A stretch of 64,000 nucleotides of DNA from Tubulanus polymorphus. Taxonomy: Eukaryota; Animalia; Nemertea. Position numbers and translations under genes: made by a program. Positions 24,851 to 52,900 of this stretch are shown one piece after another (within the stretch, counting starts at the first letter, position 1; every line of letters starts with the position of its first letter). The stretch spans positions 2,131,950 to 2,195,949 of the forward strand of contig NC_134026.1 in assembly GCF_964204645.1 (NCBI RefSeq), given 5' to 3'. Below the pieces are notes generated by a model. That model saw only the letters and a list, made by a program, of their open reading frames with translations, was not told the DNA's origin and did no database searches.

Positions 24851-24887
24851 TATAAAATCTGTTAGTTTATTTTGTTCGGTCTCAGTT
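24851..24887 (+). promoter_or_regulatory. TATA box plus Initiator of the plus-strand astacin gene
   Basis: TATAAAA 24851-24857 and TCAGTT 24882-24887 at canonical spacing, ~70 nt before the ATG at 24954. Confidence 0.6.
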
Positions 24888-24953
24888 TTGGTCACTCGTT
24901 TACACTTCGTACACGTCATCGAGTTCATTCCTGGGTAAAGCTAAACCTTGGGT

Positions 24954-27900: not shown

Positions 27901-30900
27901 AAATCGAATATTGCTGCCGTAATGATGGAGATCAAAATACAGTCATACATTTACCCACTGATAAACCAATAGTCTTGCTACCGTTTGTCGACGGAACCTG
28001 TCAGAAAATTGAAGGTAATTGAACTGGTTACTATTTACCTATTTCCAATAATTTTCTTTTCGAATTTGACAATCGAAATTTGATAATGAATTCGATTATT
28101 CAGAATACTTCTAAAAAGTCTGATTTTTTAATTCTCTGTTTTAGGCATGCACTCGCAAATCTCTAAAATCGATTACAAAACGAATTCTCCGAGCGGTAAA
28201 TTAAGAGTGTCGGGGCTGCATCCATTCTTCTGGCAATATAACAACGGTTTCCATGAAGAATTCTGCTATTACGCTCCTATCAAATACGGTATGTAACAGT
28301 ATTCTGTATCATCATCTATCTACATCAGAAAGAAGCCACTATGATAATCATATCCCTTTGATTTCTTTCTCTAGATTGTGGCGGGGTCATTGAATTATCG
28401 CAGAAGACAAAAACGTTCGAAATTACGAGTCCCAATTTCCCAAATAAGTATGATGCCAACAGGGAATGTATTTGGCTCATAAAGGTAAACAATGATTGTT
28501 ATGAATTGTAAGCGTTGACTTTAACAACAGTTTTCGTTTTAAACGTATTTCAAATGCGTGATACTAATTATGATACATCGAGTAAATCGATATTTCCAGT
28601 CACCTAAAGATTCCGTGATACAATTTACTCTGGAAGAAATGGACATAGTTAAAGGACGATGGTCTTGCAATGATGATTATTTAGAAATCAGAAAGCATCT
28701 TATTGGACAATATGGACAACGGTATTTTCAAATGTTGAAGCATATAAACATTAATGAAACAGCTCTTATACTTTTATCATTTTTTCATTTTCAGTTATTG
28801 CGGCAATTTCACGAACTACAACCGAACTTACACATCTAAGTACAATAGCATGATACTTGAATTTAAAACAAATTTTGACACTTTCGGCAAAGGATTCAGA
28901 GGTCGAGTAAGAATGATATCAGGTAAGATCTTGCTGTACAAAGAGCACCAAAACCATTTGTTTGTTTAAATTCAGAATGCCATGAAATAACTATTCATAT
29001 GTCATATCTTTGAATCCTGATTTCATGTTCATTTTCGGCATTATCTTCTCCTTGCTTGCAGAAACAGATTTTTGTTACAATCCTAAAACTGATGGAATGA
29101 ATTATCGCGGCATCACGAATTACACACAGTCTTACGTGCCATGTTTACCATGGGAAGAAGTAACTCACTGTAAATACCACGCTTTTACTAAAGAGTAAGT
29201 TAACCATTACCAGTATATTCAGTCCAGGTTCCTGCAGCTTTTGGGAAGCCGTTCCTCAATAAAAGCTTTTGACAATTTCATTATTATAGCGCTGTATATC
29301 AAGGATTATCCGGTGATCATAATTACTGTCGTAATCCTGATGGAATGTCGAGACCGTGGTGTTACACAGAAAAAGACGACTGTAAACAAGATAATTGTGA
29401 TGTCTGTCTCTTCGGTAAGCTCCATTATCAGCGACCACGAACATAATTACTGGTTACTACATGTCAACGGACAGCATTAATCTTCTAATTCGAATGTGTT
29501 AAGTGCATTTTTGTGGTGGTAATCTTACAGATAACTGTCACGACATATTCGATGATTGCAAGGAAGAACTGCAGAATGACCCGAATTACTGTCAGAATGA
29601 GAAATCGGCATTCATCGGTTGTCACAAAAGCTGTGGATTCTGTAAGCGATCTAGACGAGGTTAGGAGATTCAAATTGTTTAAGTGATGGAAGTGTCACTT
29701 AAATTCTCAAATTCCCAAATAGTTAGGAAAGCTGTTTTCATCTGAATTACAAAGATAAAAGGGGATATTTTTCAGCCATAAGCGAAAAGAAATGTCTTCA
29801 CCCGAAAACGAAAGAAGCGATCGTATTGACAGCGGCAAAAGAGTCGTACAATATCGGTGAGACAATCGAGTATAAATGTATGTATGGACACGGTAGATTT
29901 GAGAGAACGTGTATGAGTGATGGAAGCTGGGGTGGTGTTGATAATATATGCCACGGTTGTATGCCTGGATATAAAGAACACGACGGCAACTGCTACCGAT
30001 TGTTTGCCGAGCAACAAATATATCAGATCGCTCAGAACAAATGCCAAGAAATCGGATATCATACGCTTTGGCTAGAGACAGAATCTGAAAGAGATTTCAT
30101 CGTCAAAACATTGTAAGTCCATCGGCATCGCTAAATCCCCTGATTCAGATTACTATTTTTTTCACGTTATATTATTGATATTCTATTGGATAGCTTTTCG
30201 AGACGAATCAAAGACATCGGTCTCGGGGTGCGTCGTTCGGAGAAACAATTCCATAAATGGTTGACGAACAGCGGTAACTGTGAAGGTTATACGTCTTGGG
30301 TTCCTGGACAACCGAAAAACGATAAAAATTGTTCCTTGTTACGAAACGACGGAAACATGATCGGGGAATTTTGTGATTCTCCAAAACCCTATATTTGCAA
30401 AGGGAAAAAGCCAGGTGACACACGACTCAACACAAAGTTCGGCAATAAAATTTTTTATTCTTTTCGTTATGTTACTATATTTGGTTATCATATTTCGATT
30501 GATTTGCAGTAACGGCCGATTGCGTAGATCGTTTGGCAAGTTGTCGAAATTTGTTACATCGTCATCCACTAATTTGCGAACAAAACCGAGAGTTCGTCAC
30601 CAGTTTTTGTCAATATTCGTGTGGAATGTGCAGTAAGAAAACATTCCTACAAAATTTACAACGTTTTAGTTGAAAATTTATGCAATCTTTAACACATGGA
30701 ATTTTTCTAATATCTGTTGCCAGTTATAACAGTTGGCAAATCAAAAAGGAATGAGATCAGCGTCATGCTTTATTTCATCTCTTTTTTATTTCATATCAAG
30801 ATAAAAGAAATCCAGATTTCTGCAAAACTAATCAGCGGGGTAAATGGTATCCCGGACACATAAACCAGACTAAATCTGGTAAACCGTGCCAAAGATGGGA

Positions 30901-33900
30901 TTCTCAAACACCACAGAAACATACAAGAAATAACCCTCGCAATTTTCCCGAGGCGACTCTGGCGGAGGCGGCTAATTATTGTAGGAATCCTGACAATGAA
31001 CCGGGTGGTCCTTGGTGTTATATAAATCTTCCAAATCAGAAGAAAAATTGGGAGTACTGTGATATTCCTCAATGTGGTAAGGGAAAATGATATTCGTTAC
31101 CTGTAGTGTATAATGGCCGCTTAATAGAATGTCGCATGCTTTCTATAAATGATTGCAAGAGATTATTTCAGCTGCTGTCTGTTTTAATGTTCCTAGTCAT
31201 TGCTTATCTCTTATTGCCAGTTCACTCTCACAAGTCCTCACCAGTCATCCATGCATCTTTTGTACAAGATCATTATTCGTGGGCGACCTTTTACTTTGAT
31301 CAATAACGATTCCAACGTATCTATCATATCTAGAGAAGTTTGATTTTTGTATTATTTCCTAGGCAAAAAGGGACAGTGCAAAACTCCTACTGCAATTGCG
31401 AACGGTTTTATCGAGAAATACGTATCTCCAAACAGCAACCAAACGATCAACGTAACAGGCGATCACGTTTCAACTGCTGGTGATTACGTGCACTTCAAAT
31501 GTAACCCTGGGTTCGAGTCCGTATCTGGTAATCTAGTTAGATTGTGTTTACAGTCTGGTGACTGGTCGGGATCGGAATCAGTATGTTCTAGTAAGTAGGA
31601 GAATGATCTAAATTTCTTAATGAGCCGAAGAGCTCAAAACTTATACAAGTAGATCATTTATCATATCATATCATATCATATCATATCATATCATATCGTT
31701 CTTCATGCTTTTTCAGATTCATCATTGCTTACGCGTAATATCGGTGAAAGATTGAGACCGAGACGAAGAAGGGACAAACATCGCGATATCGTTATCGATG
31801 ACAACCTGAAAATTCCGATTGATGGTGAAATTTTGGAATGGCGAATTTACAGCGTTTCGAAGAGCACGATGTATTTACAAGTTTGGGAAACCGTCAGCAA
31901 AGACAAATTCAAACTTGTCGGTCAAAATAAAATCGAGACAAGGCTTCATCGAAGTATGACATTTAGAATACCAGAAGAGCAAAGGATTCATGTGAAAAAA
32001 GGTTATTTTGTGGGAATGTACTTTAGCGATAGAAATCCACCTATTCCTCACACAACCTGCGCGCATCAAGCGCTTCTTCCTTATAACGATACCATTTACT
32101 CGACAACCGCTAGAAAACCTGGACCAATCACCATCGAGGATGAGTACGAATTTACAAGTAGCATGAACGATTGTAGAAACTATTCAATACAAGCGACCGT
32201 AGCTCCGAGTAAGTCATTCAAAAATTGAAATTTATTCAAACACCGAAATACAGTTCAAGATGAATATTTCTACGAATAATTTTCAGAGGTTCTTAAAGAC
32301 TCTTGCGACGCTTTAGTGGTGTCTCCAATGAGAATTATTGGTAATACCTCCACTATAGCAGTAAGAGGTGACGTATTGACGTTTAGATGTGAATTCCCAT
32401 ATTACCTCAAAGGGGCCGGTGAAAGACGATGTTTAATGGGAGGCAGATACGATAAACCAATGCCTACGTGTATATGTAAGTTGCCTGTGGTCCAATTAAA
32501 TATTTAGTGATACTTTGAATTCTTCGGGAATGTCTTTTTGCTATCAATTCCTTGGCGTTTTAGACAAGAGCCCCTGCCCGAAAAACTGGACATTTATAGA
32601 TGGCTCCTGCTTCATACAACTTCCTGGAAGGACAAACTACTCACAAGCGTCGAAGTCATGCTCATCGCACGGAGACGATGTATTTTTAGCTTCTATAACC
32701 CAAGCTAGACAAAATCTCATGTCAAAATACGTGAACAGTTGGGTTTCACGAGTGGCTGGTAAGCATAGTGAATTGATTATGATATTTGTGTCAAGCGATA
32801 TATTTGTGTTTAATAGCAAAACGTAAATTTACAAATCTTTATCTCAGGATTAGTTCAGCAGCCTGTTTTATGTAAGAAAGACAAACGAGGACGTGGGTAC
32901 GCGGGTCGAGTTAGTACAGACAAATCTGGTAACACCTGCCAAAGATGGGATACTCAGAAACCACAGTGGCATAGTCTCACTAATCACAACAGATTCCCTG
33001 GGCATCCAGCATCGCTCAAAGAAACTGAGAATTTCTGCAGGAATGTAGACGGTGAACCGCGGGGTCCTTGGTGCTACCTGGCTGATAAATCAAAAGGTCG
33101 CTGGGCTTATTGTGATATACCGTTGTGTGGTAAGGAAACTTGATGATATTATACTTATTCAGTTCGACGGATAAGAATCTGGAATAGTTATTGAATAACG
33201 AACATTTATTTGATTACAGGAAAAAGCAGCAATGTAAGCACTTGTATGTCTACTGGGACGAACATGGCTGCTCAATTAGAAGATTGCCAGCGTTTGCTTT
33301 ACCCCCTTTGTGAAAGAAAAGCAGGTACGTATTGCAACTTTCGAAATACTTCCAATCGATTTATCACTTCAGACCATTTCTTGTTAAATCGCTCTCAATC
33401 CCATATTTTCAGTTTGTCCCATCGATTTTGTACAGTATAAAGACCGCTGTTTCCTGTGGAGTCGCGAGGAACGTACCTGGCAAGAAGCTGAAGATGAGTG
33501 TAATAGATGGGACGGACATCTAGCCACTGTACCAGATGACGTAACACGCCTCTTCCTAGAAGACTACATGTATGTATAAGATGAATACGATGATTTGATA
33601 TAACGTGACTTTGTAAAAATAACGTATCATATTCACACAGGAAAACGGATCGATGGAGTTCATGGATCGGTCTGAATGATAAAGAAACAGAAAACCAATT
33701 CAAATGGATCGGGAACGGACAGTCTGCGACATATACTAATTGGGGAAATGTCTGGGGGCGTCAAAAACCCTCAGGATCACGCTCTTCAAATTGTGTATTC
33801 ATGATGTGGGGCAAAGGACTTTATTACAAATGGGTTGATGATCCCTGTCAAAATAAGCACAGATATGTCTGTCAAACTGGTGTTTTATTCAAGCGTAAGA

Positions 33901-35750
33901 TTTTCTTAATCTGTAAATGTAGATAGAATACGTGATAGTTTCAAATAACCTCCTATTAGATATGGCAATAGTAGTGATTCTCACTTTCTTTATGAAGTAT
34001 TATCTTTCATTCGTTTACGGCTTCATTTTAGCTGAATTCAAAGATTCCTGTTCACTCCCTTATGTTCATTTCAACACGACTTTGGCAACGACACCGAAAG
34101 CTGAATTTAATGTTGGAGAAACAGTGAATTATGTATGTTCCGATGGATATCAACTCGTTTCCAAACAAGGATTAAACCGCACGTGTTTGGGCAAAAACGT
34201 TTGGACGAAGACTGCTCCAAAATGCATCTGTGAGTTGAAAAGTTTATTCTTATTTCATAATAGCTCAGAATGTGTTTTGAATTCATTAAATGTATTTCTT
34301 TTAGATTCCACTGATATCTATGATGAATATGGGTCGTTAGGAAACACAAGAGAACAAGATGGCGGAAAATGGGTTCATATGTTTTCGGTGAACCAATATG
34401 CAATCAAACACAAGTCTAAGATTACCCAGTGGAGTTTCCAGAGCAAAGTAAACACAACGATCTACCTTCAAGTTTGGCGAGCTGATCCTAGGAATGATAA
34501 AGCGTACGTGCTGATTGGCCAGAATAAACTTGACGTCACGGCGGGCATGAACACGTTCGACGTGGCCCCTGAAGATCAGATAGTGGCTCTACCTGGTGAT
34601 CGTATAGCTCAGTTTGCTTACAAACAGGCTGCGGTCAGATACATGCCATGTTGGAGCGGACACGACTATCTAGTTACTCGTTATACGGAGGAAAAAATGA
34701 ATGTCGGAATCGAATTGAAATATTCGAAAGGGACCTGGTATACTTGCCGTCAATACCGTCTGAAGTTTCTGGCAATGAGACAACCGCTTGATAGAATTGA
34801 AAAGGGTTGGTATCTTAACTTTGATAAACTGATTCAATTAATAGCATAGGTTATGAAATAGATTGTTTAAGTGGCTAAAGAGTATTGTTTTATCGTACGT
34901 ACGTTTCACAGTCGTGCTCGGAAATTTTACGAAATTGTGTAGAACTCCAACGATTCACGAATCGACATCACTGACCCCGATGAAAGACATATACTCGGCT
35001 AACAGCAATGTGTCATATTCGTGTAACAGTCCTGATGCTCAAATTGCTTCTGGAAGCAACCTTAGAACATGTATGGGAAGTGACCTGTGGACGTCGCAGT
35101 CTCCGATATGCAAATGTAAGTAATAACTTATTCGCGTTTCTTACCCGAAATGTCCTACTAGTTTGATAATGAGCGCGATACTACTTTTCTTACTAAAAAA
35201 AACTTCAATACCAAGTGCTTTAATCTGCTTTCGTTTACGGCTCCGATTTTTACTTTTAGTCACCAATGATATCGTTGATGTGTATGGCATCAGTCAACAA
35301 GCAAATATGTATGACGGCTCCGGTTGGATCCATATCTTCAATCCGGATGTATACACTATCAAACACAAGTCGAGAATCTCGCAATGGAGGTTTTATAGCC
35401 GAAAAGACACCGAAGTATTCCTGCAAGTTTGGCGACCCGATCCTCAAGAACCGAAGAAATTTACTTTAATCGGCCAGAACAAACTGTCAGGCATAAAAGC
35501 GGGAGAGAATACATTTAACGTGACAAAAGCTGATCAGATATTGGCGCTACCCGGAGATCGTATCGGGCAATACTCAATCAACCATCCAGGAGCTGTTGTT
35601 TGGCAACCATGTGGTGGTGGTAATAATTACCTCGTGTTGTCTAACAGGGCCCTATCTATACCTATATCGTTCGAGGGAAAATTTGTGTTTGGTGGCTGGT
35701 ATAGTTGTCGTCGTTTCCTTGTCAAGGTTACTGCCAACAGGGTACCGTGA
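24954..35750 (+). CDS. Secreted mosaic astacin (M12A) metalloprotease: SP-pro-astacin-EGF-ApeC-CUB-Kringle-ShK-CCP-CTL-ShK-Kringle-CCP-X-CCP-CTL[Kringle]-CTL-CCP-X-CCP-X
   Basis: Signal [15 protein letters not shown]; furin site RAKR; [19 protein letters not shown]; Met-turn SVMHY. ApeC 27461-28288 ([34 protein letters not shown]); CUB 28375-28922; kringles with CRNxDG/N..PWCY at 29061-29413, 30800-31076, 32848-33129; five CCPs; CTL motifs. Stop TGA at 35750, AATAAA at 35755. Some exon boundaries are approximate. Confidence 0.9.
31660..31696 (+). repeat. (ATATC)n microsatellite in intron
   Basis: About 7 tandem pentamers. Confidence 0.9.
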
Positions 35751-36093
35751 AAACAATAAAATGGTCTTCTCAAATACACATACCTTTTAGTTAGTATTCC
35801 TTCTCTAAGTGTTTTAGTAGTTCGATTTTAGAGTCTTTGGTCAGATACTTTCTTTGGGGTACAAAAAGAAACTAGAAACTACGATCATAAAATAGAATAT
35901 ACATATTTATTTTTTCTTGACAGTGATTTGTAGCTCTGTGCTGTATACACTGCTTGGTCAACGAGTAACAATTATTTGCTATCAGATTAGTGCTATTAAC
36001 TACCACCACTTGTAGTTGTTGTGCGTTTACGAAATATTACAAAACTTTTTTTAAGTACATAAGTCGATTTTGTCGTCATGGATGTCGTTAATT

Positions 36094-39000
36094 TTATGAT
36101 TCGATTACAAGAGTTGACAGCGAGGGACTGAAATGTTGACACAAACCACATGAGACTGGACAACTACGTAACATAGATTTATCATTTTCGCATTTCTTGT
36201 CCGGCCCTTTCGCCCATTGTTCACAGAGAATATCCTGGTCTCTACAATTAGCTGTAAATAAAGAATGTATTATTCAGAAAGAAAACAGGAGTTGGTGAAG
36301 TTCAGTTTGAAGAGGTGGAAATGGAGAAAAAACCAAACTTACAGCGTTTGCATAAGCCACATGCCAGTTTGCATTCTTTTAACATATAAACAGGGCTGCT
36401 CTTACAAAGTCCATGCGCCGCCCAAGACGCACAATTTCCATTTGTATCCACACAATCTGTAGAAGAAACATATATGATTTCAATAAATACCAGACGACGT
36501 AAACATCGTTTTAAAGAGATACAAAAATGCAAGATGATCTCTAGGTGATCTAATTTTGATTATAAATCTTACATATTCGTTCGTCAGTGTTGCCTTGATC
36601 TGATTCGTCCAACTTGCCGCAGCTGCCACATCCTTTCTGACAATTATACATCATCCATTCTGGATTTTTTTCACACTCTCCAATACGAGCCCATTCCGAA
36701 CACAGACGATCTTTACCGTACGAGTTTATACATCCTAAAATCATACAAAAAACGATGATTATTATCAACTTATCGCACATGGCTCAAATACCGTTGGAAT
36801 AAAGCTTAAATTTTGTTCAATATTATTTAATCGAGAAAGATTTTGTCGATTCACAGTCGAAATATGAAAACTCTTGTATAACATTATGATCATTTTTCAT
36901 CTTAGGATGATAAATGTGAAAGACGTTAGAATACATTCTTTCAGGCACCGTTTCTATAGTTAACGTAAAATGAACGAAAATGTACATTCGATAAGAAACA
37001 AAACTTTACCAAAGCTAAAAACAGAAGTACATAAACATGCATCAGGGATATAGGAGATTCTATAAAATGGAAGGACAAATTATTTGTGATATGCACCACA
37101 TACCTTGTTCATTTATGGTGAGTGATATTTGTAGTAGGATATTTGTAAGTATTTTTGTAAGACGTTTTGTGTGTTCTAAAATGTACTACTGCGCATCCTC
37201 TATCGCCATTCCAAGTTATCGTGTATTGTTGTGTCAAGTGACTGGTAGATTAGTAATGAAACTAACGAATTTTGTTATCCGCACAAAAATCACACATTAA
37301 ATTGTTAGTGAACAAATCATTCAACAACAGCGAAGGCTAAAAAGGCCAACATTCGATGACATTTCTATGATGTCGATTACTGTCATTAACGGGGATAAAA
37401 ATAGGTTTGAATTTTTGAAATGTTGGCCTTAATTGATGTTTCCAAAAAGCCAAAACCATCAAACTTCTACTGCCGATAATGCTCTCACCCTCGCCCTGAT
37501 TAATGACGTCACAGCCGGTGCACGTTTTAAAACAGTTGGCCATCATCCAAGCCGGAACTGATCTGCATAGACCGTCTTGCGACCATGCGTCGCATGTTGT
37601 GTCGTCGCCAAACATGTTGACGCATTCCGTATTACCTGAACATTGATAAATCTATTTCGACGTGAATTTTGAAATTCTTGAAACGAAATTTAATTTTAGT
37701 ATTTGCACGTTTAAGGCTGAACTTCATCTAATTCCAGATTTCTACTATTTTCAATTTCTACGTACCTAGCGCAGTTGGTTTCTGGGTGGTTACAACCTGT
37801 GTTGTTTGGAATGTATTTGTAGTTGGTGTCGCTAAAGGCGCCGTATTTTCGTATATACAATCGCTACATGATTTATAACAATATATAGACATCCATTCGT
37901 GGTTTATTTCACATTCTCCCAATTCGGCCCAAAGAGAGCATTTTAAACCGTCTTCGTGAATATCTCGACACAACTCACCCTGAGGTCGACCGGAGTTATC
38001 ATCTATCGATGTACTTTCATCAGTCGAGTCTCGCCTTCTTCCTGTTAAAACAAATGCCGCATTCGATGATAATCGTATAACTGCCATTAATATTTCGTTT
38101 CTAATTCTCTAAAACAGAAGCTGATAGCTTACCATTCTCACCAGGCCGTCCCGGACAGAAATTACACGATCGTTTGCAATTTTCAACCATCCACGACCCA
38201 TAGTTTCTACTATAACATGCTCCTTCCCTTGCCCATTGTTTGCATCTTTCGGTGCTGAAGAATATATCGCGGCAACCTGAAACCAACGAACGGTGACATT
38301 ATTATATATGCGTTAGCTGATAAAAATATCTTAAATTTGTGTTAAATTGGTGTTGATATTCATAGGACTATTTATGATGCTTACCACTAGATGTCCCCGT
38401 CTTAGGGCACAGTCCGCATGATTGTTTACACTTTGATGTCATGAACTCAATGTTCGATGTACAACCGCCTCCTTTCGCCCACTCTGGACAAAGTGTTCGT
38501 TGATCTAGACATTCTATTGCAGAAGAGATATATAATGAATTCTCATTCGTATACGAATCTATTATTAGCAATGGATAGATTTTTACTAACCTTCATCATC
38601 ATCGCCTTCACTATCAGCAGTTTCAACTGTTTCCTCTGATTCTTCTGTTCTCAGAATTCCATCATTAATCGGGTCTGTATTACACAGGTCACACGACTTT
38701 CTGCAGTTGAATTTCATCCAGGTGTTTTCCTCGGTACAGAATCCATCTTCTTTCCAATCTGGACATCCAACATCCAAATCAACACAGGCTTTAAAGAAAG
38801 GGAGAGAGAGTTGTAGGATTAAGTAGAAACTAAAGGGAAAGTGTATGTTGTAAGCCGGTACAATGTTTGTAGTCATTCTTGTCAATTTCCTCCTTTTTTA
38901 AAAATATAACGATACGCTTTAGGAATAACTTTCTGTGTAAGTTTTTCATATTTGTCAGTGCTAAATTTCTTAAGAAGCTTTATTCATCCTTACTTGAATC

Positions 39001-42000
39001 AGCATTACTTCGGTCTTTTTCGATATCTTTATCAGCGCGAGTATCGGTATCTGCTCTATCGACATCCTCGGCTTCCCCCATTGTTTCTTCATCTCTCTGT
39101 TCCCTGCACAGTTTGCACGAGTATCTACAGTTTCGCGACATCCACGCTCTATGGCCAGTACATTGACCATCTACTGCCCACCGTGGACATCCTACGTTTA
39201 AATCAACGCAATCTGAAATTGAGAATTTTATAATAAACACACGAAACCCCTACATACGATAAGTACGTATCATTTTATTTATATCCCGAAGTAGAATAAT
39301 CCAACCTAACACCTCTTATCTACACTAATACTAGCAAACAGTTATTTCTTATGTGTAAGAGTTATACCTCCATCTGAATCATCGGTTCCTCCGACTTCAG
39401 GGTCTCTCCCGTCACCTTCGTGGCCACATAATTGACAAGACTTACGGCAGTTTGTACTCATCCATCTTTCGTGAGATTCGCAGTTCCCACTGCTAGCCCA
39501 CCTCTCACATCCCACGTTCAGATCATTACACGCTAAATAAGGCAGTAACATAACCAAAAAGCCAAGTCAAAATAGGAGACGTAAATGCGTATAAAAAGCA
39601 GAAACGATAGGTGAATATAGTGAAGAAGTGCCGACAACAAATGCGTAATGATATTGAGTTGAACTCGATGAATGAGGCTCCCAAATAATCTCTCAGCAAA
39701 TCAGTCAAAAATTATACACGTGCACGTAGTTAAGCAAATGAAGTGGCTATGATTTACATATACTATGGCATTCTAGCCTTTAATTTCTACTCCATTCAAT
39801 AAGAGGAATAGAAAATATCACAGAAAAAGATGAGACAAGAATCGTGCCTTGAAACGATATGTCTTTCAGACAACCAGCAATATGATTATGAATGTTATCT
39901 TTGACAATACGGATAAAGACATAACGAGATAAGATCACATATTCCAAGAGGCAAAAAGAAGCAAAGCTTTCACCATAACCACCGAGAAAATGTAAAAAGA
40001 AATACCTACCAGAATCCCCTTCATCACCGCCTTGGATGCAGAAATTACAAGATTTTTTGCAGTTTTTAATCATCCAGTTTTTATGCGGTTCGCATTGTCC
40101 ATCAGATGCCCATTTGGGACACTTCGTTTTCTCGTCTTTGCATTCTAATGATATAAATGCAGATAAAATGTATTTTTAGCAACGTTCCTCATCAGGCAGT
40201 TGAACGTTTTGATCTAATTCTCGATATCAGTTACCTTCTCTCCCAGAATCATTTCCATTACCACGTCCTGTAGTACCACGGTCACCTTTAGGGCCCGTTC
40301 CCCCTGTATTAGTACCACGATCCCCCGTAGTACCACGACCCCCCGTAGTACCACGATCCCCCGTAGTACCACGATCCCCCGTAGTACCACGATCCTCCGT
40401 AGTACCACGATCTCCCGTAGTGCCACGATCCCCCGTAGTACCACGATCCCCCGTAGTGCTACGATTCCCCGTAGTACCACGATCCCCTGTAGTGCCACGA
40501 TCATCAGTAGTACCACCTCCTCCACCTTCGCGATCACTGCTTCCTCGATCTCCACCATCAGTTCCCCTACTACCTTCTTCACCTGCTCCAGTTGCTACTG
40601 TACCACCTGTCTCTGGTAGGCAGAGATTACAAGATCGTTTACAATTCTTGCTCATATATTTGCTGTGTTTACCAGAACAGAATCCTCGTCTCGCCCACCT
40701 TTGGCAGCCTTCATTAAAATCTTTACATCCTGGAGAAGAAGAACTTTACTACTTTCAAATGTCTAATACCACACCGAATACTCTATGAATATTCAGTGAT
40801 TTGCGAAGGGTGAGAATAGTCGATGAATATAAACCTTGATTGGCATCAGGTGGAGAACAATCATCCTCGTCTCCCCCGACTCCACCTGTTGTGCCTCCTC
40901 CACCTTCTGTAATTCCTCCGCCGCCACCATTGCACATCCCACAGGATTTCTTACAATTTTTACCCATCCAATCTTCGTTATTTTTGCACTCACCACCCCT
41001 ACCCCAGTTAGGACATTCGTCATTTAGATCATAGCAGCCTGCGAAAGATAATCAACAATTGATAATCTAAAACTACAACGATTAATTTACTTGTTATTGA
41101 GGCCTACATCAATTTAAAGGAAAACCTCGAAGCACAATCGGATACTTACTGGGTTGATCTGGACATTTGAAGCACGATCGTCTGCATTCAATTAGCATAT
41201 AACCCGGATTATTGTTGCAATCACCATTAGCTGCCCATGCTTTGCAGCTAGTGGAGGTATCCTTGCATTCTGTGAAAATAATTGACTATCGATTATGATG
41301 TAACGTATATCGATTTATGCGGTACAAAATAACCTACATCATTACCGTTACCTATTTACATAATATTATCTTAACCTGATATTTTGCACTGTTTTGATAT
41401 CACTTAAACCAAAAATTCAAAGCCGATTTTTAATTCATTTTTGACAAAACATGTATACGTTTAGACACATACCACCAGAAACTGTTGTGGTGATAACAGG
41501 ATACTGAGTTGTTTCAGTTGGAGTTATTGTTGTGGTTGGAGTTGGTGTCGTGGTCGGTGGTTCTGGAGATGTTTCAGGCTGACAAACGGCACACGATAGC
41601 GGGCAATTCTTCTTCATGTAGTCGACGTTTGCATCACAACCACTGTTACGAGACCAAATCGGACACATCGCATGATTATCAACACAACCTAAAAATTCAA
41701 TTGCGAAACCATGTAAAACTCCGTTAGTAGTCACAAGTAAGAATGGAGATCACGATGTACGTAAAGCTACCTTCGTTTCCTGTGATAGGGCACAAACCGC
41801 ATGACCGTTTACAATTTACATCCATATAACCAGGATTATCCTGGCATCCGTTATTTCTTGCCCATTGGTTACACATGTTCGCAGTATCCTTACACTCTAT
41901 AATAGATTAAGAATATACTTTTATTTTTGAATCATGCTAACAACCCTCAATAAACCTCAGAAATTTTTGGCCAAGATCCATGCTACGATGGTGATGTATA

Positions 42001-45000
42001 AATGGGTTCATCATTACCGGCCGGCGTGGTTCCATTATCGACACATTTTAAACAAGATTTCTCACAATTCTTGCCCATCCAAAACTCGTTAGTTTCACAC
42101 TCTCCTCTACTCGCCCAATCCTCGCAATTCTTATTCAAATCGCGACAACCTAATTAAACGATAATAAATATTTCTTACGACCTCGATCATTCGAAAAAAT
42201 TTGATTTTCAATTGAATGAAATGAAGCGTCATCCGTCAATATAGCTGATTTAATAACTAAGTATACCTTTATCTTTGCCAACATTAGGTCCACATACGCA
42301 GGTTCTTTTACAATTCTCAGCCATCCATTCACTATTTTTCTTACACTCGCCCATATTTCCCCATTCTTCACACCTTGAGTTCGCATTTACGCAATCTGGA
42401 AATGAGATCAATGTAAACTATGATTGCATGCTGATCGCACATTAGCATTCTCGGGTCAATCAGCGTTCTTGAAACTAACCATCAGATCCAGTGCTACCAC
42501 CCCCTCCTCCTCCAGTACCGGTAGTAGGACATGTGTTACAAGTCTTCATACAGTTTTTAGTCATCCAACTATTTGTTTCACATTGTCCTTGTTTTCCCCA
42601 TTCGGGGCATCGCTCTCTTGAATCCAAACATTCTGTCACGGTAAAAGTAAATATGCAAATAGGTTGTTTTTCAGAATATCATATCGAGTACTCGTATTGT
42701 CAAAATTTACCTTCGCATTGGCGACACGATTTTCTGCAGGCATCGAGCATATATCCCGGATTGTTTGTGCATTCTCCACTTTCTGACCACTCCTTACATT
42801 TGTCATTCTCATCAACACAAGCTATAAAATCCATTAAATAGAAAATTAGAGTTTTCTTCTTCTAAATGATCCTAGAAAAGATCGGTTAGACATTTTTTCG
42901 AAGTTACCTGGTTGGCATATTTTACAGGACAGTTTACACATTTCTTTCATCCATTCTGGATTAGCCTTGCATTCGCCATCTTCTGACCACTGTTTGCATC
43001 TGACATCCGTGTCTTCACAATCTTGGAAACAAAGAGAAAAAATACATAAACGAAAGTGTTGAAATCGTAAGCAATGACCAGTCAATGAAAACGAAATCTC
43101 ACCATCCTCGCCAGAATTGGAACATTTGTTACAGGATTTACGACAATTTGCTGTCATCCATTCTTTGTTTGATCGACATTCGCCTTGGTTCGCCCATGTC
43201 GTACATTTATGTGCCATAGTATATGTGTCCTTACATTCACCTTGAGTGAACATGATAAAAATGCATGTATATTCGGTACAACTTGTAACATAAGTCAGAA
43301 AACCTCTACATCTTATACCAAAAGGTGCGAGGCATAGTGTTTTTACCTGTGGGAGTAGTAGGAGTTGTCGGTGTGATTGGCTTGGTGCCACCACCGCATC
43401 CAGTACACGATTTCAGACAATTTCTCAACATCCACATTCTATTCTTGCTACATTCACCGCTGTCTGCCCAAATACGACATTTAGCTTCACCGTGGGAATC
43501 CAAACAGCCTGATAATTCATAATAAAAAAAGTTCCATAATTCATCGCCCAGTTGTTACTACTGGTTGATAGCTATTTCTAACTTACCCGATTCTTTGCCA
43601 CTTTCACACAATAGACAAGATTTTCGACATTTTTCACCCATCCAAACGGGATTTGCTTGGCACTCTCCATCACGAGCCCATATTTTACATTTCTCTTCAT
43701 CATAATGTAGGTCTACGCAATCGCCTGAATATAGAGTAACCAAAAATGAATAAATAATCTTCAAAAATATTCTGAACTTTGGTTCAAGATATCGGCCTGC
43801 GTGCTAAGCAAACATTATGAGTATTACCGTACCTTCTTTGACGCATTTACCGCAGGTCTTACGACAGTTTTCCACCATCCATTTTTTGTTACTCGTACAT
43901 TCCCCGCTACTTTTCCAGTACTCACACATTTTGGTATCAGAATGCGAGTCGTGGCATTTCTCTGGAATTGGCAAATTGCAATATGAAATGGGTAAGAAAA
44001 TGCGTTAAGATGAAGAAGTATTTTTTGTTATATAAAGTACCATAAAGACATCGTTTGCAGGAATTCGGACAATGGTGTAGCATCCAATTGGGATTTCCTT
44101 TACATTCTCCTTTTAATGCCCACTGTTCACACGATGTATGTAAATCCCTACAAACAGCTACAATGAAAGAAAGACAACTGATGTTCAACTGTTCTTAACG
44201 TTTAACCGGTCAATGTTAGAGCGTAATTGGAACAAACTACAAAGTATTCTTAAGATAACAAATGTTCACATATTTTCACTTACCCGGTACAACGGTCTTA
44301 TTGTAACATTTTCCGCACGCTTTTTTGCAATGTTCGGTCATCCATTCTGGATTTATGTAGCACTCCCCATAATGTGCCCAGTCGCTACACTGTGTATCAT
44401 TATTGTGTTCATTACGACAGTGCGGATCTGTTTAATAGAGGAAAAACCATCAATTCACAATCATTGTAACAATTTAAGTATTCTATTCATTTCGGATCTG
44501 TGTCAACAGAATAGAAAAAATTTTCTAGGTACATACAATTTCTTCATATTTTATGGAAGCATGATTAGACAAGATAATTATAAGTAGAAACAAACCTCCT
44601 CCGCCACCACCGGCTCCACTGATGCGGCAACTTTGAGTTCCATCTTTGCAAACGCAACGACAGTTTTTGTCTAAATATCCCGGTGCTCTGCATTTATTAT
44701 CAGAGCTACAGAGCGCTAAAAATGCAAAACGAAATTTCTCATTACTCACTGAATGTTAGTGTGCGCTCTGAACAACGGTCATAAGCTGTGGTAATGGTTA
44801 CTTCAGAGTGCTGATAAAGTGCTGATTTTGAAAGTCTCGTAGAGGCAGAGCTAGACCCTATCTCCCCACAGTGGGCGCCCTTTCTGTCATGCCGGGTCGT
44901 TAAAACCGACATATTCGATACTTATCCCCTATGGGAACTGAATCTTTTTGGATGGATTTCTTCAAACATATCTTGTAACACCTATGGTGGATCCCGCTTG

Positions 45001-48000
45001 TAGCCTTCCGCATGCCGAGCAATTCCCTTCGTGTTATTTTAGACCCGCGCCTTCCAATTTAGCTAAGATCCGTCCCTCGTTTCTCAGGATAAAATGTAAT
45101 TTCGTAACTCGATTCAGCTCTAGGATTCGGTGACTCACCTGAACAGTTATACATAAGGTTTACTATCTTAACGTCCAGAAATGTCAATGATTTGTGAGAT
45201 ACTCGTCCAATTTCTTTCTCTCTCGAACGATCTAAAGCTATAATGGTTTGGCTACCGTCTTTGGAAAATGCCTTTATCAAGAAAGATAAGAATATCATTT
45301 TTCCGAATGAATTATTTATCGAAATATTTTTCCAATCATGAAATTTACCGTAACTCCGTAATGCATGATAGATGATAAATCGTATTCAACCCCGTGGTTA
45401 TTTATTTTAGCTTCTTTGTATTTCTGAAACCATTCAGTCATAGCCGGATCTACGTTATCCCAAATTATGAATATGTGGTCATCTCTGTTTGGAAGCTGGT
45501 GTTCGTGAACTAAGCCAATTGCGTGCGCAATCTCATGAAGATACAATCCTCGCTAGAAGTAAGATAGATACAATTGAAAAGTAATTCAAGATTAATAATT
45601 AAAGATGTGCGTATATTGTTTTTTTCTTACCCATCTGCAGCCGTTACGATCAAGATTGATAGGTTGCGCGCCACCTATCATCCCTAGATTTGAATTACAT
45701 CTGGAAATACACGAATATTGAAGATCGTAATCGAGTTATTTAGAGAACATGAATTTCGACTTAGTGCTGTAGTTATATAGTTTTCGTGAAAGTAAACTAT
45801 CACAGAATTTCCTAGTGGATTTTTACCCATTTCCGTCTCTGAATCTGACTTTGTTGAATTGCCACGGTTGAGCGGGTGAGAATTTCAGGCAGGTTTTCTC
45901 ACTCCATTCATCCATTGATGCTTTTATCATTGCGATATCAACAGTAGCTGGAGAAAGAAATAAATACCACGCATTCACAGAATATCTGCCGCATTGTAAG
46001 GCGTGTAATATACTATAACTACAATAATATAGGACTTTGTTAACGGGGTTGAAAAGTAAGACACTCGAACTGCAACATTTTGCTTCAATTTTTTTTACAT
46101 GGTAGAAATACACGTTTAATTGTATACATATATCACCGGCTGATGATTAATGATACGTTGAAATCAAAATTTTGAATCTACTTACGAAAATCACTGAGTA
46201 CGAATTCGTATGGAATTGTTGCATTGGTCCATCGAAAAACAGTATCCCTTACTGCTTTTCTTTTATTGCGTCTTCGTTTTCGTCTACTGAAGGATAAAAA
46301 TACTAATAAAAAACGTTGTAAACAGATAAAATGCTGTTAACAAACGCGCAGGCTACAGCAAAAAAAAAAATCTATGAAGCCTGATTAAGATCTCTTTACC
46401 TGAAAATATGCATACTACGAAGGTTATTTGGTTCGAAACTCACCCGGCTCGTGGTTGATATAAACCTTCGTATTGGTCCTTGGTTAAAAGCAAATCCAAC
46501 TCAGCTAATACGGTATTATTAGACATTACTAATCCACCAGATGCTATAGCTGTGTATAAAAACCGCAACGAAACAAACAGTGAGTGTTCGAGCTTATCTG
46601 GGGTATATGTATAGAAAAATTAAAATGCGCAATAGAAATTTTCTAGTTTTTCTAATATTTCTTTATTACATCAACGAAAGACTTTTAAACCAATTAGGCA
46701 TAGTTATGAAATAGATATATTGCTATCAATTTTCCTTCAAAAAGTTCAGACTGATGTTGGGGCAATTTATTTGTCATGTCGTCTGACATAAATGAATTAT
46801 TGTCTACTGCGCTAAGTACTTTGTTTACGTGGTTTATACTCAATGGCAGGTTCCTCGTGTAACTGAATAAATCATTTCTATGAATTATGTTTTGTGGATC
46901 GAGTCATTAGTTTGTGGCTAGCACTTTTATCATTTTCATGATAGAAAATTGGAATATATCAAATGCCGGTCACGGCGTATTCTTACCGCTATCGCGCCCA
47001 CCGAGCGCCTTTAATAATGCTTGGTCAATTGTCATATTTGGTTCTCGTTCTGAGATGCCAGGTGGCCCGACAATTCTCTGTAACTGATCCCATCCAGGTG
47101 GATATCCAGGACTATCCGGTAAACCTGGCGGTTCAGCCCGCATCACCATCTCACTAATAGCTGGGGGACTTCCAGGCGGAGCATTCGGACCGTCATCCGA
47201 GCCTGGAGGTCCAATTTTTCCTTTTTTCAATCCTGGTTGATGGCGAGCAGGTCCCTGTGGAGTGTTTTGGTTATTAGTTCCTGGGGGTGATGGTGGGTCA
47301 CCAATTCTAATATCGTTAGGTGTTAGGCGCATCTCCGACAAACGGTTGATCATGTTATGCGTCGATGGTCTACCTGAAGTTATGCCCGAAGATGGTCTTC
47401 CCGAAGGAGGTCCGGTACGAGAAGGTCTCCCGCTAGGTGCCCCTGTCTGGTGTATATACTGACCAGTATGTGGTGAATGTACTGGTGGCCCTATCGGAAT
47501 TGCGTAGAGCACAGATATCTGCATAATATAATAGACAATATGACGTTTCAGTTTTTTAGACACTGTAACAGTGGATTTATTTTATCACTTTTGTTGAACG
47601 CTTTTGAAATGCGAAGAAGCCAGAAAGAATGCCGAAAGAATGCAATCTTCCGAACAGCTCAATAAAAAATTGTTTCCAACTTCGTTTAAAAACAATAAAG
47701 GCCAAGGCCGTATGTTTTCTTATCTCGTTTCCTGACTCGTTATCTCGCTTATTTCAACATCCGTAGCTGCCAACTTCTTGTAGTGATAGACAATTGATTG
47801 AACTGTAGCATTGTTAGTGGCAGGTTGCGGCCAAGAAATTCAAAAATAGCGGAAATAAGTCGAGCAGTTCTTTCCAAAATAATGATAAACAATCAATTAA
47901 TAGGTTTTAGAGAATAACACATATTTTCAGTTTCGTTAAATCAGCAAACAATAGAAACAAGTGTACTCGTTTAGATATCATAACTCTAGAACTATTAGCT

Positions 48001-48090
48001 TCAATATTTCATAAGAACAACATTTTGATTAAAGAAATATCAGCTTACCATTACTGAAAGTAAAGTGAAGACTGTCCACTGAATATCCAT
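36094..48090 (-). CDS. Secreted astacin metalloprotease with Pro/Gly-rich prodomain, EGF-like domain and 27 ShK domains
   Basis: Exon 1 MDIQWTVFTLLSVM (48090-48049) joins ISVLYA as a signal peptide. Pro-region ELDLLLTKDQY; polybasic RRKRRRNKR; HEIAHAIGLVHEHQLPNRD; SIMHY; EGF-like exon ~44596-44715; 27 phase-1 exons each with C..C..W...C...M...C...C..C. Stop TAA at 36096-36094. Confidence 0.92.
40268..40512 (-). repeat. Coding 18-nt tandem repeat encoding (GTTGDR)n
   Basis: cccgtagtaccacgatcc units inside ShK exon 16. Confidence 0.9.
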
Positions 48091-49940: not shown

Positions 49941-52900
49941 ATGGCGGCGCCCATGGTTGTTTACATTTTATTGATACTTATAGTATATTTCTCATATTTC
50001 AATGTTAAAGCAGTGTCCTTCGATGAGTGTGAAGCTACTGGTACCTGGGAATTCATCGACGAATTCGAGAACAAATCCTTTTACGTTTGCAAGCTTTCTG
50101 ATTCCTCTGTGAATCAATATGAATGCGGATCAAATGGTCATAGATATACGATCAACAAAGAAAAGTTATTTGTCAATGAGCTGAATGTGTCAGATTCAAC
50201 ACTGTTATCATTCGTCGATCTAATGAAATTGCTCACTTATGAATGTGCTAAGTGCAAAGTTTGCTTCGCGGAGAATTCGAAAAACGTTGACGCCCGTATA
50301 AAACCGACAAGTCTTCGCAGACTTCAACATATAAATCACGTTCATCTGGTCTATATGAATCATCTAGATGTAGGTTACACGACCAATCATTTCTACCCTG
50401 GTATACATGTTACCATGCCTGGTTATATCAACAATGTGCTGAACTGGTATTTCAAAGTGTACTTCCCTCGTGCGATTAAACTTGGTCAAGAATTGAGACG
50501 CACGAATTCGTCTGAAACGTTCATTTACACGACACATCCGTGGTTAGTTACTATGTATCTGAATTGTCCGCGTTATTTAATCCTGAGTGGAGTTCAGCTA
50601 CAGGTATATTGTGAATTCACTAAAAATCATTCAAATTTTCTTAGCAATAAGATTACAATGTTAGATATAGAAATGCTCTACTCCGAGGAACTGGCCTGAA
50701 AATTAATATAGATAATTTTTATAGGTTTATTAGATTTTTAAGACCACAACATTTCGGCTGTTATCTGGCTGTTAGTCAACAGCTGAAATGATGTAGTCAT
50801 CCAAGTTTGATAAGTTACCTATATTGTTAATTTTCTATTTGTGTATTTTCTTAATGAATTTCTATTATCAGTGCCCAAATAAGGAAGAAATATCATCATT
50901 CACTGATGCAGTTAAAAGAGGTGTGATAACTTGGCACGCAGGACCATTGAACCAGGAAGCTGAGAATTCCGATGCATATTTATTTAACAATGGTTTGGCA
51001 ATCAGCGAGGAACTGGATGAACGGTTTGGAATTAAACGCAATTTCCGTACACTCAGTCAAAGAGATATACCGGGTAATTTCAAATATTCATTTCATCTTT
51101 CAAATTAAGTTCAGTGAAAATGGCTTAAGTCGTTGAGGTTGGGACGACTGTTGGTGACTTATCCAAGACAACTAGCACTTTGTACAGTGGAACTGCATTA
51201 TAACAAATTGTATATAATGATTATCAGTTATAACAAACCTAGGATTTTGTCCATAATCGAAGAATTTCAAAAATTTCTTACTGGATATATAACTTAACTA
51301 TTAGTTGTTATAACCACCAGATTTTCTGGTCCACTGAAATTCGTTGTAATGAGGTTCCACTGTAAATTGAATTGGAAAAACAAATCGAGACTCAAAAACA
51401 CGACTTCAGAGACTGAGACACTTATCAAAAATGACAATTTAATCTAGTTAAACAGTATCTTATCTATGTATTTGAATTTAATTTTAGGTATGACGCAGGC
51501 TGTTATTCCATTTTTAGCAGCGCACAATATTTCTGCGGTATCAGTGGGTGTAAACTGGGCAAGTTCTCCTCCCGCGGTACCCAGTCCAAATCGATGGAGA
51601 TATGGTAATTCTGAAGTTATAACATACTGGCATAAAGGCGGTTACCCGGGCTCGCCGGGAAAAGATCCGAAACATCCGGGAGGACTCAGTCGTAAAGACT
51701 GTCAAATCGTTCAGAATCTCGATCACGCTTTGTGTTTCGCTTTCAGAGCTGACAATTACGGCCCACCGGATAATATTCAAGAGATTAAACGCTATTATCG
51801 AATATTAAAGGGACAGTTTCCGTCTGCCAACATCAGAGCATCTACTTTAGAAGACTTTACGGCGTTTTTACACAAAGTAAAATCAGAATTACCAGTCGTG
51901 ACGTCTGAAATCGGTGATACTTGGATCCAAGGATCGATATCAGATCCTTTGAAAATATCCGTGTTCAGAGCTATCAAACGAGCGCAGAAGAAATGCTTCG
52001 AGATAAAAAAATGCTCCTTGAGCGACTCACGAATACGCAATATGACGAGATACCTGACTAAATTACCAGAACACACTTATGGCATCGCTTCAGCTCTGGA
52101 CAAAATTCACTGGTCAAACGCCGAATTCTATCCTCGACAATTCACTCAATCCAGTTTTCAGAACTGTACGAAATCCTGGATATCGCATCGACGATTCAAT
52201 GATCTGGCAGTCGAAGCATTAATGGATCATCCGCTTGTCAACGATATCAACAATCAAATACGAGAACTTCGTCCTAAAATTCCAAATCTAGACGGCTTCG
52301 TGAAAAATCCCGATCTCATAAACGACGGCATTAGATGCTCAAATGGCTTAGTACTGAAAATAAATAAACACGGATCTCTCGTTGAACTTTTTGATGCCAA
52401 TAAAAACATCCATTGGGCATCGGAATCAACTCCCTTGGGCCAGCTGATTTATAATACATATTCAGAAGAAGATACGAGAAATTTGACAAAATATTACGAC
52501 TATCAGGAAGGCGGTCCGGGTTACTATAAATTGAATGTATCGCGGGCTAGACCCGAAAGTAAATCATGGTTTCCCGATGTCGTAGATGTTTATACTAACG
52601 GAAATAATTCCGATATTTGTTCGAACGGAATCTACATTCTTCTACAGTTCACCAATGTGACTGCCTCGAAAAAATATGGCGCACCGCAAAATATTTGGCT
52701 TAAATATCAAATTCCGCACCATTTCGAGAAAACTATCGATATTGAACTGCAATACTTCGATAAGAATCCAACACGACTTCCAGAAGCGTTGTTCTTTAAT
52801 TTCTATCCGGTTCAACTGCCCGGACATCATTGGTTGCTTGAAAAGTTAGGACACATGATCGATCCGAGTAATATAGTTTTAAATGGTAGTCAATACCAAC

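What the first reader, a model, noticed from the sequence alone, without database searches (positions are those of the whole stretch)
36094..44427. Astacin protease carrying 27 divergent ShK domains: possible self-processing toxin/peptide library
Seen: 27 six-Cys ShK modules, each on its own phase-1 exon, differing in sequence and separated by Gly/Thr- or Asp/Glu-rich linkers (e.g. EESEETVETADSEGDDDEG). Dibasic sites are nearly absent from the linkers; one RRR occurs near 38035. Known: astacin-ShK fusions exist but typically carry only a few ShK domains; free ShK peptides can block Kv channels; astacins often prefer acidic P1' residues. Inference: the protease may cut its own acidic linkers and release many ShK peptides into mucus or venom, and symmetric exons would allow combinatorial splicing.
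Basis: partly seen in the sequence, partly recalled or inferred. Interest (0 to 1): 0.8.

Follow-up and report, generated by a model that had tools for sequence, protein, structure and literature searches.

The report
Ribbon-worm protease with 27 ShK modules
A ribbon worm has an expressed, alternatively spliced gene for a protein-cutting enzyme that trails 27 small toxin-like modules, about three times the usual eight, which likely stay attached as a multi-point binding tail rather than being released as a cocktail of toxins.

Summary
The gene is real. It lies on the minus strand (48090-36094) and has 36 exons: signal peptide, prodomain with furin-type site, intact astacin, then 27 ShK modules, all passing Pfam, entered through phase-1 introns. 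A neighbouring gene matches Tubulanus polymorphus, a ribbon worm. Spliced contigs from two studies support 33 of 35 introns, put the astacin and ShK1-16 on one contig, and show exon skipping: the main form lacks ShK23-24, and ShK18 is optional. Relatives in molluscs, annelids and nemerteans usually carry 8 modules (42 of 60), at most 16; 27 is the most on any astacin I retrieved. The self-cutting library idea is weak. Median linker length is 9 residues, only 10 of 26 linkers offer an internal acidic site, acidity matches protease-free ShK arrays (p=0.50), and 1 of 27 modules has the Lys-Tyr dyad. A central five-module block on long acidic linkers keeps partial release open. Verdict: an extreme, spliced expansion of a known astacin-ShKT family, most likely a tethered multivalent tail.

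The parts
48049..48090 (-). Exon 1 coding part: start codon and signal peptide (5' UTR runs on to at least 48400)
   Evidence: Model; hydrophobic stretch, Kyte-Doolittle 2.17 over 11 residues; spliced to exon 2 in X3 record 13
46987..47518 (-). Exon 2: end of signal peptide and a 177-residue Pro/Gly/Ser-rich N-terminal extension
   Evidence: no Pfam hit; covered by spliced contigs of X3 and X4
46444..46549 (-). Exon 3: prodomain with the aspartate-switch-like ELD motif shared with relatives
   Evidence: same motif in P0001, P0008, P0011, P0014
46186..46286 (-). Exon 4: polybasic furin-type activation site and start of the catalytic domain
   Evidence: a polybasic KR-K-A site at the same place in relatives
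45139..45947 (-). Exons 5-8 (45947-45827, 45700-45631, 45552-45349, 45271-45139): astacin catalytic domain with HExxHxxGxxHE, SIMHY Met-turn and the S1'-side loop
   Evidence: Pfam PF01400 on 3 of these 4 exons, best E=7.6e-21; PDB hits tolloid-like 1, BMP1, astacin
44596..44715 (-). Exon 9: Cys-rich (EGF-like by eye) spacer and Gly linker
   Evidence: no Pfam hit; similar spacer in relatives
43103..44427 (-). ShK1-6 exons (44427-44284, 44157-44041, 43961-43833, 43724-43587, 43508-43347, 43240-43103); five of six have the long Cys1-Cys2 spacing of ancestral positions 1-6
   Evidence: inside X4 record 15
40835..43021 (-). ShK7-15 exons (43021-42908, 42821-42711, 42632-42480, 42395-42267, 42149-42018, 41896-41771, 41688-41473, 41269-41150, 41038-40835): short-spacing modules, mostly short or Thr/Gly-rich linkers
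   Evidence: inside X4 record 15
40235..40729 (-). ShK16 exon with a 129-residue linker holding an 18-nt tandem repeat (40310-40516, 11.5 copies)
   Evidence: joints 40728/40834 and 40144/40235
40010..40144 (-). ShK17 exon
   Evidence: joints
39368..39532 (-). ShK18 exon: cassette exon, both included and skipped
   Evidence: X3 joints 39212/39368 and 39212/40010; X4 loose ends at 39217 and 39533 equal the letters at 40011-40025
38133..39212 (-). ShK19-22 exons (39212-38994, 38788-38591, 38513-38385, 38276-38133); the two most acidic long linkers follow ShK19 and ShK20
   Evidence: joints shown in X3 and X4
37979..38041 (-). 63-nt linker-only exon piece (starts with RRR) ending at an internal donor used in the main transcript
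   Evidence: Joints 38040/38132 and 36733/37978 in X3 and X4; donor and acceptor sequence
37489..37978 (-). ShK23 (37978-37766) and ShK24 (37635-37489): open frames, good splice sites, skipped together in the main form; inclusion not directly seen
   Evidence: Pfam pass; skip joint in both spliced runs, unjoined X3 contig at 37789-38007
36094..36734 (-). ShK25-27 exons (36734-36573, 36456-36343, 36251-36094, stop at 36096-36094); ShK26-27 best match ancestral positions 7 and 8
   Evidence: joints shown in X3 and X4
35906..35911 (-). AATAAA polyadenylation-type signal at the end of the 3' UTR
   Evidence: X4 record 14 ends at 35913

Best explanation
This is an expressed, alternatively spliced ribbon-worm gene for an astacin zinc protease, predicted to be secreted, whose tail of 24-27 ShK modules likely stays attached and likely works as a long multivalent binding arm. 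Shown: gene structure, intact catalytic motifs, splicing, and a family background of about 8 modules. Inferred: (1) a furin-type convertase removes the prodomain at the polybasic site; (2) the enzyme acts outside the cell, probably at skin, mucus or gut surfaces, as reported for ShKT-astacins; (3) the disulfide-locked modules, many nearly abutting, form a beaded arm that holds the enzyme on substrates or surfaces through many weak, varied contacts; (4) the arm grew from the 8-module ancestor by internal duplication of symmetric phase-1 exons, keeping the ancestral last two modules; (5) exon skipping adjusts its length. Occasional clipping in the long central acidic linkers is compatible with this reading but is not its purpose.
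For: Single gene: X4 record 15 is 3502 nt, exactly the spliced length of exon 2 to ShK16 plus a 3-nt insertion; record 14 is 1369 nt, exactly ShK19-22 + linker piece + ShK25-27 + UTR. Catalytic motifs intact. No transmembrane or GPI-like stretch (best window 1.08 over 19 residues). Family: 42 of 60 proteins found with the Owenia relative have 8 modules, range 0-16, mostly from molluscs including filter-feeding bivalves. Internal growth: relatives show six long-spacing then two short-spacing modules; the window has a run of 15 short-spacing modules (7-21) in the middle, and its modules 26 and 27 score best against ancestral positions 7 and 8. Linkers are poor cut sites: median 9 residues; cleavable-type fraction 0.38 against 0.61 in relatives and 0.46 in protease-free arrays. 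Dyad in 1 of 27 modules, against 4 of 384 scored modules of relatives. The PDB profile search ranks domains of larger proteins (2mcr, MMP23 domain 2k72; E 1.6e-10, 1.2e-8) far above free ShK and BgK (E 0.085-1). Hydra HAS-7 runs at about 30-40 kDa against 33.3 kDa predicted for the mature protein with its tail (PMC8191133 passages). ShKT-astacins are mostly in barrier epithelia and gut (PMC9848320 passage).
Against: No binding partner, tissue or protein-level result exists for this gene; the arm's role is inferred from architecture. No single contig spans the gene: contigs break at the tandem repeat and at the ShK18 branch. Linkers 15-26 are more acidic than 1-14 (0.231 vs 0.128), and five consecutive modules (16-20) have long acidic linkers on both sides. 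The S1'-side Lys suggests an acidic-P1' enzyme that could cut them. Isolated ShK domains from nematode metalloprotease tails are active (PMC5401880; PMC9699480). M12A proteases and ShK-like proteins are in the mucus proteome of another nemertean (PMC7460313). The tree was the quick version and leaves the gene in an open fork (SH-aLRT 83), so one-to-one orthology is not shown.
Confidence: 0.55

Rival explanations
1. Processed peptide source: after activation the astacin, or a neighbouring protease, cuts the long acidic linkers and frees the central modules 16-20 singly and the rest as blocks of 2-10, adding ShK-fold peptides to mucus or proboscis secretion.
For: Cutting all 10 cleavable-type linkers gives blocks of 10, 3, 2, 1, 1, 1, 1, 1, 2, 3, 2. 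The one dyad-bearing module lies in the five-module central block (read from alignment; 5 in 27 by chance). A Lys aligns with the Lys pair of the Limulus enzyme in 8a28 (PMC3186203). Nematostella NEP3 is a multi-ShKT precursor whose first domain is released (PMC5832418). Host phylum is toxic (PMC6410017).
Against: NEP3 uses Lys-Arg sites, found here in 2 of 26 linkers. Acidity equals that of relatives from non-venomous molluscs and of protease-free arrays. 16 of 26 linkers are too short or lack an internal acid. None of eight paper searches listed a title or abstract describing an astacin that frees its own ShK modules.
Confidence: 0.2
2. Intact defence or feeding protein: the whole protein is secreted in mucus or proboscis fluid, and the tethered modules bind ion channels or surface proteins of prey or predator by avidity while the protease degrades tissue.
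For: Nemertean host. [quoted passage not shown] In the vampire snail, five of seven M12-ShK transcripts are more than 100-fold salivary-gland enriched, and absence of the dyad does not exclude channel activity (PMC6409789). Divergent modules suggest varied targets.
Against: No tissue data for this gene. Oyster and apple-snail relatives of the snail genes are expressed in all tissues (PMC6409789). The main texts of two transcriptome toxin surveys that include this species do not mention astacin (0 hits each; supplements not read).
Confidence: 0.15
3. Near-neutral expansion: symmetric phase-1 exons duplicate easily, extra modules are tolerated, and only about eight matter.
For: Long arrays arose separately in Owenia (16), Biomphalaria (15), Babylonia and Antedon (14), Lineus (13). 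ShK23-24 are skipped in the main form.
Against: All 27 modules keep six Cys, a Trp and a Met although only 41% identical on average, so duplications are old and constrained. 11 of 15 exonic differences seen in the runs are synonymous. Even the skipped exons keep open frames and splice sites.
Confidence: 0.1

Closest known systems
Lophotrochozoan astacin-ShKT (M12-ShK) proteins with about 8 modules: e.g. oyster LOC111135757, Patella, Lineus (9-13 modules), Owenia CAH1783615 (16), Cumia CreM12-ShK (3-9)
   Same: Signal peptide, prodomain, polybasic site, astacin (56% identical to the oyster domain over 198 residues, up to 62% to others), Cys-rich spacer, ShK tail ending in two short-spacing modules; the same HEHQLP variant motif and lengthened S1'-side loop.
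   Different: 27 genomic modules against a median of 8 and a maximum of 16; an internal run of 15 short-spacing modules; a 177-residue Pro/Gly-rich N-terminal insert; a 129-residue repeat linker; exon skipping shown. Owenia's expansion includes identical repeats (max identity 1.0), this one does not (max 0.66).
Nematostella NEP3 family (multi-ShKT toxin precursor; PMC5832418)
   Same: Secreted precursor with several ShKT domains.
   Different: NEP3 has three domains, no protease domain described in the passages read, and Lys-Arg processing sites; here dibasic sites are in 2 of 26 linkers.
BmK1 (Brugia) and ScK1 (Steinernema): ShK domains from nematode metalloprotease tails
   Same: 2mcr is the best PDB match to the module profile (E 1.6e-10); astacin-type enzyme plus ShK tail.
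   Different: Tested as isolated single domains that keep the pore Lys; natural release was not shown in the passages read. Here Lys plus aromatic occurs in 2 of 27 modules.
Sea-anemone ShK / BgK potassium-channel toxins
   Same: Six-cysteine ShKT fold family (Pfam PF01549).
   Different: Single-domain peptides with a Lys-Tyr dyad; only weak profile matches (E 0.085-1).
Nymphon striatum KAG1661053 (43-44 ShK modules)
   Same: Even longer ShK array with Thr-rich linkers.
   Different: No astacin domain; near-identical repeats (mean identity 0.75).

Membership tests
Astacin metallopeptidases (M12A) | Zinc motif HExxHxxGxxH with catalytic Glu and family-specific Glu after the third His | tested here: met
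   HEIAHAIGLVHE in exon 7; Pfam PF01400 E=7.6e-21
Astacin metallopeptidases (M12A) | Met-turn SIMHY with Tyr | tested here: met
   SIMHY in exon 7
Astacin metallopeptidases (M12A) | xxRxDRD motif after the family Glu (PMC9848320) | tested here: inconclusive
   HQLPNRD: the final RD is kept, R and D are replaced; the same variant is in oyster, limpet, snail and Lineus relatives
Astacin metallopeptidases (M12A) | Signal peptide and prodomain with switch aspartate | tested here: met
   Hydrophobic N-terminus and ELD motif conserved with relatives; sequence-level only, no signal-peptide predictor available
Astacin metallopeptidases (M12A) | Zinc-dependent proteolytic activity | not testable with these tools
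   Needs recombinant protein
Acidic-P1' astacins | Basic residue in the S1' pocket (GQR/K motif, or the Lys loop of LAST_MAM; PMC3186203) | tested here: inconclusive
   GQR/K absent; loop reads GRVSHK, with Lys aligned through the Owenia protein to the Lys pair of 8a28. That 8a28 is LAST_MAM is recalled; only calls it Limulus astacin. No structure was modelled.
ShKT domain (PF01549) | Six-Cys pattern and Pfam gathering score | tested here: met
   27 of 27 exons pass, 22.0-43.8 bits against a cut-off of 20.9; six Cys invariant
ShK-type Kv channel toxins | Lys-Tyr (Lys-aromatic) dyad | tested here: not met
   Lys-Tyr in 1 of 27, Lys-aromatic in 2, Lys/Arg-aromatic in 3; position set by the BgK alignment
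ShK-type Kv channel toxins | Exists as a free single-domain peptide and blocks channels | not testable with these tools
   Needs peptidomics and electrophysiology
Multi-domain toxin precursors of the NEP3 type | Dibasic processing sites between domains | tested here: not met
   2 of 26 linkers have a dibasic pair, 0 of 26 a furin motif
Lophotrochozoan 8-ShK astacin group | Clusters with the group on the catalytic domain | tested here: inconclusive
   Nearest rows are group members (62% identity), but the gene sits in an open fork of 70 rows at SH-aLRT 83 in a quick tree; shared motifs and terminal module pair support it

The most novel reading that the evidence does not exclude
A ribbon worm has turned a housekeeping astacin-ShK protein into a self-processing polyprotein: its own protease domain cuts the long acidic linkers to shed a set of divergent ShK-fold peptides, mostly without the classic dyad and so with other targets, and alternative splicing changes which peptides are made.
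Probability: 0.15. Interest if true: 0.8.

Novelty: new variant of a known kind. Interest (0 to 1): 0.45.

Why it matters
What ShK domains do on astacins is an open question, although about 900 such proteins were counted in 2019 (PMC6409789). This gene has the longest astacin-linked array I could retrieve, from a toxic worm, with natural splice variants and a clear split between uncleavable short-linker blocks and a central block on long acidic linkers. One protein can therefore test tether versus release directly. It also supplies 27 natural, divergent ShK-fold scaffolds, nearly all without the dyad, for asking what else the fold binds. If the tail simply stays on, it is a record-length member of a known family and of moderate interest.

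Tried and rejected
No whole genome was held for this window, so paralogues elsewhere in the genome were not counted. The run search listed no holder on record as RNA; X3 and X4 are taken as cDNA only because their contigs are spliced. A second read-laying over 36500-40250 gave no result, so 23 joints not displayed stay unseen and inclusion of ShK23-24 is open. Contig depth rises towards the 3' end in X3 (60 to 1874); the tool says contig depth cannot rank parts of a gene, so I did not use it for or against separate array-only transcripts. AATAAA also occurs at 10 places inside the gene, unremarkable in AT-rich DNA and not used. I looked for hidden modules in introns over 150 nt and found none. 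My first acceptors for the ShK23 exon (38002, 38043, 38044) were wrong; RNA gives 38041, and linker counts carry one extra residue in that linker. The gene's own product was not found in the protein collections: none of 347 fetched proteins matches the array above 67%, so any public annotation of it was not seen. The protein atlas gave no result for the Pro/Gly-rich exon. Order of modules against ancestral positions correlates only weakly (Spearman 0.33, p=0.10), so only the terminal pair is claimed. The careful tree did not finish. Look-ups of earlier scan findings returned nothing. No structure or complex prediction was run. Supplements of PMC9415933 and PMC4986456 (toxin tables for this species) were not read and might list this transcript.
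Full report
1. Observation. A six-frame scan and a relaxed motif search found 27 six-cysteine modules on the minus strand between 44419 and 36139. Each was scanned as a single exon translation, and 27 of 27 pass the Pfam ShK cut-off. Triplet shuffles of the region gave at most 1 hit in 200 trials. The modules average 41% identity (26-66%), with six Cys, one Trp and one Met invariant.

2. Gene model. 36 exons from 48090 to 36094 give one open frame of 1967 codons: signal peptide, a 177-residue Pro/Gly-rich stretch, prodomain with an ELD motif, a polybasic site, the astacin domain (Pfam PF01400 on 3 of its 5 exons; zinc motif with both glutamates; SIMHY), a Cys-rich spacer and 27 modules. All introns from the spacer onward are phase 1, GT-AG, median length about 110 nt. 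There is no transmembrane or GPI-like segment.

3. Transcript evidence. Of six runs listed, none is on record as RNA. Four were laid: X2 and X5 show no splice joints; X3 (study P1) and X4 (study P2) are spliced. X4 record 15 is 3502 nt and runs from exon 2 to the ShK16 exon; the model predicts 3499 plus a 3-nt insertion seen in that run. X4 record 14 is 1369 nt, and the model predicts 1369 if ShK23-24 are skipped. In all, 33 of 35 modelled introns are supported: 12 by displayed joints, 1 by the pieces of X3 record 13, 1 by X4 loose ends, and 19 only by this length arithmetic. The two not seen flank ShK24. Both spliced runs join an internal donor at 37979 to ShK25, so the main form has 25 modules (1847 residues). 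ShK18 is both included and skipped in X3 (two joints) and in X4 (two loose ends matching 40011-40025), giving a 24-module form (1792 residues). The first 30 nt of the two competing exons agree at only 18 positions, so this is not misplacement. No contig spans the whole gene; 23 joints were not displayed.

4. Organism. A neighbouring exon at 51487-53160 matches a Tubulanus polymorphus protein at 100% identity, with the next hit at 49%. This is a palaeonemertean ribbon worm; nemerteans use toxic mucus and proboscis secretions (PMC6410017, abstract and passages).

5. How unusual is the count? A search with the catalytic exon gave 22 relatives, 0-10 modules each. A profile of the 27 modules against 1.84 billion representatives, which ranks module-rich proteins first, returned 150 proteins; 28 of 150 carry an astacin, with 4-16 modules; the top hit has 43-44 modules and no astacin. 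Named long ones are Owenia (16), Antedon and Babylonia (14), Strongylocentrotus (12), Acanthaster (11-12). A search with the Owenia protein over lengths 661-2104 gave 60 proteins: 42 have 8 modules, median 8, maximum 16, one has none. Across the 90 fetched proteins with at least 150 aligned astacin residues the maximum is 16. Counts use my own profile of the window's modules. The libraries are clustered and length-limited, so longer arrays may exist unseen. In print I saw 3-9 modules in Cumia (PMC6409789, section 2.3 and passages) and six called exceptional in Hydra (PMC8191133, passages).

6. How the array grew. Eight-module relatives show six modules with long Cys1-Cys2 spacing followed by two short ones. 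The window shows long spacing in 1, 3-6 and 22-25, short spacing in 2, 7-21 and 26-27, and modules 26 and 27 score best against ancestral positions 7 and 8 averaged over 42 relatives. The simplest reading is internal duplication of symmetric exons with the ancestral end kept. In a quick tree of 91 catalytic domains the long arrays fall in separate places, and the window's gene sits in an open fork with the lophotrochozoan group (SH-aLRT 83); exact orthology is not shown.

7. Testing self-processing. For: many astacins prefer Asp/Glu at P1' through a basic S1' residue; a Limulus enzyme uses a Lys loop instead of the GQR/K motif (PMC3186203, abstract and passages). This family has such a loop, aligned to 8a28 through the Owenia protein, and the window keeps a Lys there. 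Linkers 15-26 are more acidic than 1-14 (0.231 vs 0.128), and modules 16-20 have long acidic linkers on both sides. Against: the median linker is 9 residues and 15 of 26 are 10 or shorter. Only 10 of 26 are at least 8 residues with an internal acid (my own rough criterion), none within ShK1-10. Overall acidity is 0.204, with 28 of 58 relatives higher; astacin-bearing arrays (n=28) and protease-free arrays (n=121) do not differ (0.154 vs 0.143, Mann-Whitney p=0.50; relatedness not corrected). Acidic linkers are thus a general trait of ShK arrays, not a mark of self-cleavage. Dibasic sites of the NEP3 kind (PMC5832418, passages) are in 2 of 26 linkers.

8. Testing the toxin reading. With the dyad position set by the BgK alignment, Lys-Tyr occurs in 1 of 27 modules, Lys-aromatic in 2 and Lys/Arg-aromatic in 3; in relatives the figures are 4, 50 and 85 of 384 scored modules. 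So there is no enrichment. The profile matches domains of larger proteins far better than free anemone toxins. The dyad is neither necessary nor sufficient for activity (PMC6409789), and isolated domains from nematode metalloproteases are active (PMC5401880, one passage; PMC9699480, passages), so activity is not excluded. M12A proteases and ShK-like proteins were reported in the secretions of another nemertean (PMC7460313, passages; PMC9132205 and PMC10674772, passages, mention ShK-domain candidates). The main texts of two surveys that include this species have no hit for astacin (PMC9415933, PMC4986456, passages; supplements not read).

9. Mechanism and verdict. Most likely (0.55) a secreted, convertase-activated astacin whose ShK modules stay attached as a multivalent arm at an epithelial or mucus surface, lengthened by exon duplication and tuned by splicing. 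The function of the arm is inferred, not shown. Partial release of the central block (0.2), an intact defence or feeding protein (0.15) and tolerated expansion (0.1) remain. Eight paper searches (listings and abstracts seen) showed no description of this gene, of an astacin with more than 20 ShK modules, or of spliced ShK arrays; subscription papers are not covered. It is a new variant of a known kind: real, expressed and the longest of its family in my sample, but the library interpretation fails most sequence tests. Interest 0.45.

Noticed in passing
window about 23850-35750, + strand: A second, convergent astacin gene (or gene cluster) ends about 160 bp from this gene's 3' end. Exon pieces hit Pfam Astacin, ApeC (apextrin C-terminal), Sushi x2, C-type lectin x2, Kringle x2 and ShK x1; CUB-like and further ShK-like pieces by eye, plus three related ~160-residue segments (31653-32225, 34307-34786, 35262-35747) with no Pfam hit. 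Astacin plus ApeC plus kringle looks like an unusual mosaic.
   Followed up: partly
window 49953-53160, + strand: DUF5054 glycoside-hydrolase-like gene; 99.8-100% identical to LOC141899346 of Tubulanus polymorphus. Used to place the organism.
   Followed up: yes
window 40510-40568: A 57-nt in-frame skip inside the tandem-repeat linker appears in unspliced runs X2 and X5 as well as X3, so likely a length polymorphism of the linker in DNA; a 3-nt insertion at 41507 in X4 lies in another linker.
   Followed up: no
window 46987-47518, - strand: 177-residue Pro/Gly/Ser-rich extension before the prodomain, absent from the relatives printed; no Pfam match.
   Followed up: partly
window 37337-37489, - strand: The ShK24 frame stays open for about 50 codons into the next intron; ShK23-24 might form an alternative last exon rather than a cassette. 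No AATAAA was found there.
   Followed up: partly
window 55487-55822, - strand: Exon of a succinyl-CoA ligase alpha-like gene (Pfam CoA_binding).
   Followed up: no
window 23170-23390: G-rich tandem repeat upstream of the second astacin gene.
   Followed up: no
proteins P0023 and P0027: A sea-spider protein with 43-44 near-identical ShK modules and no enzyme domain; a Tubulanus protein with 11 ShK modules followed by von Willebrand A domains, so this species has at least one more long ShK array.
   Followed up: no
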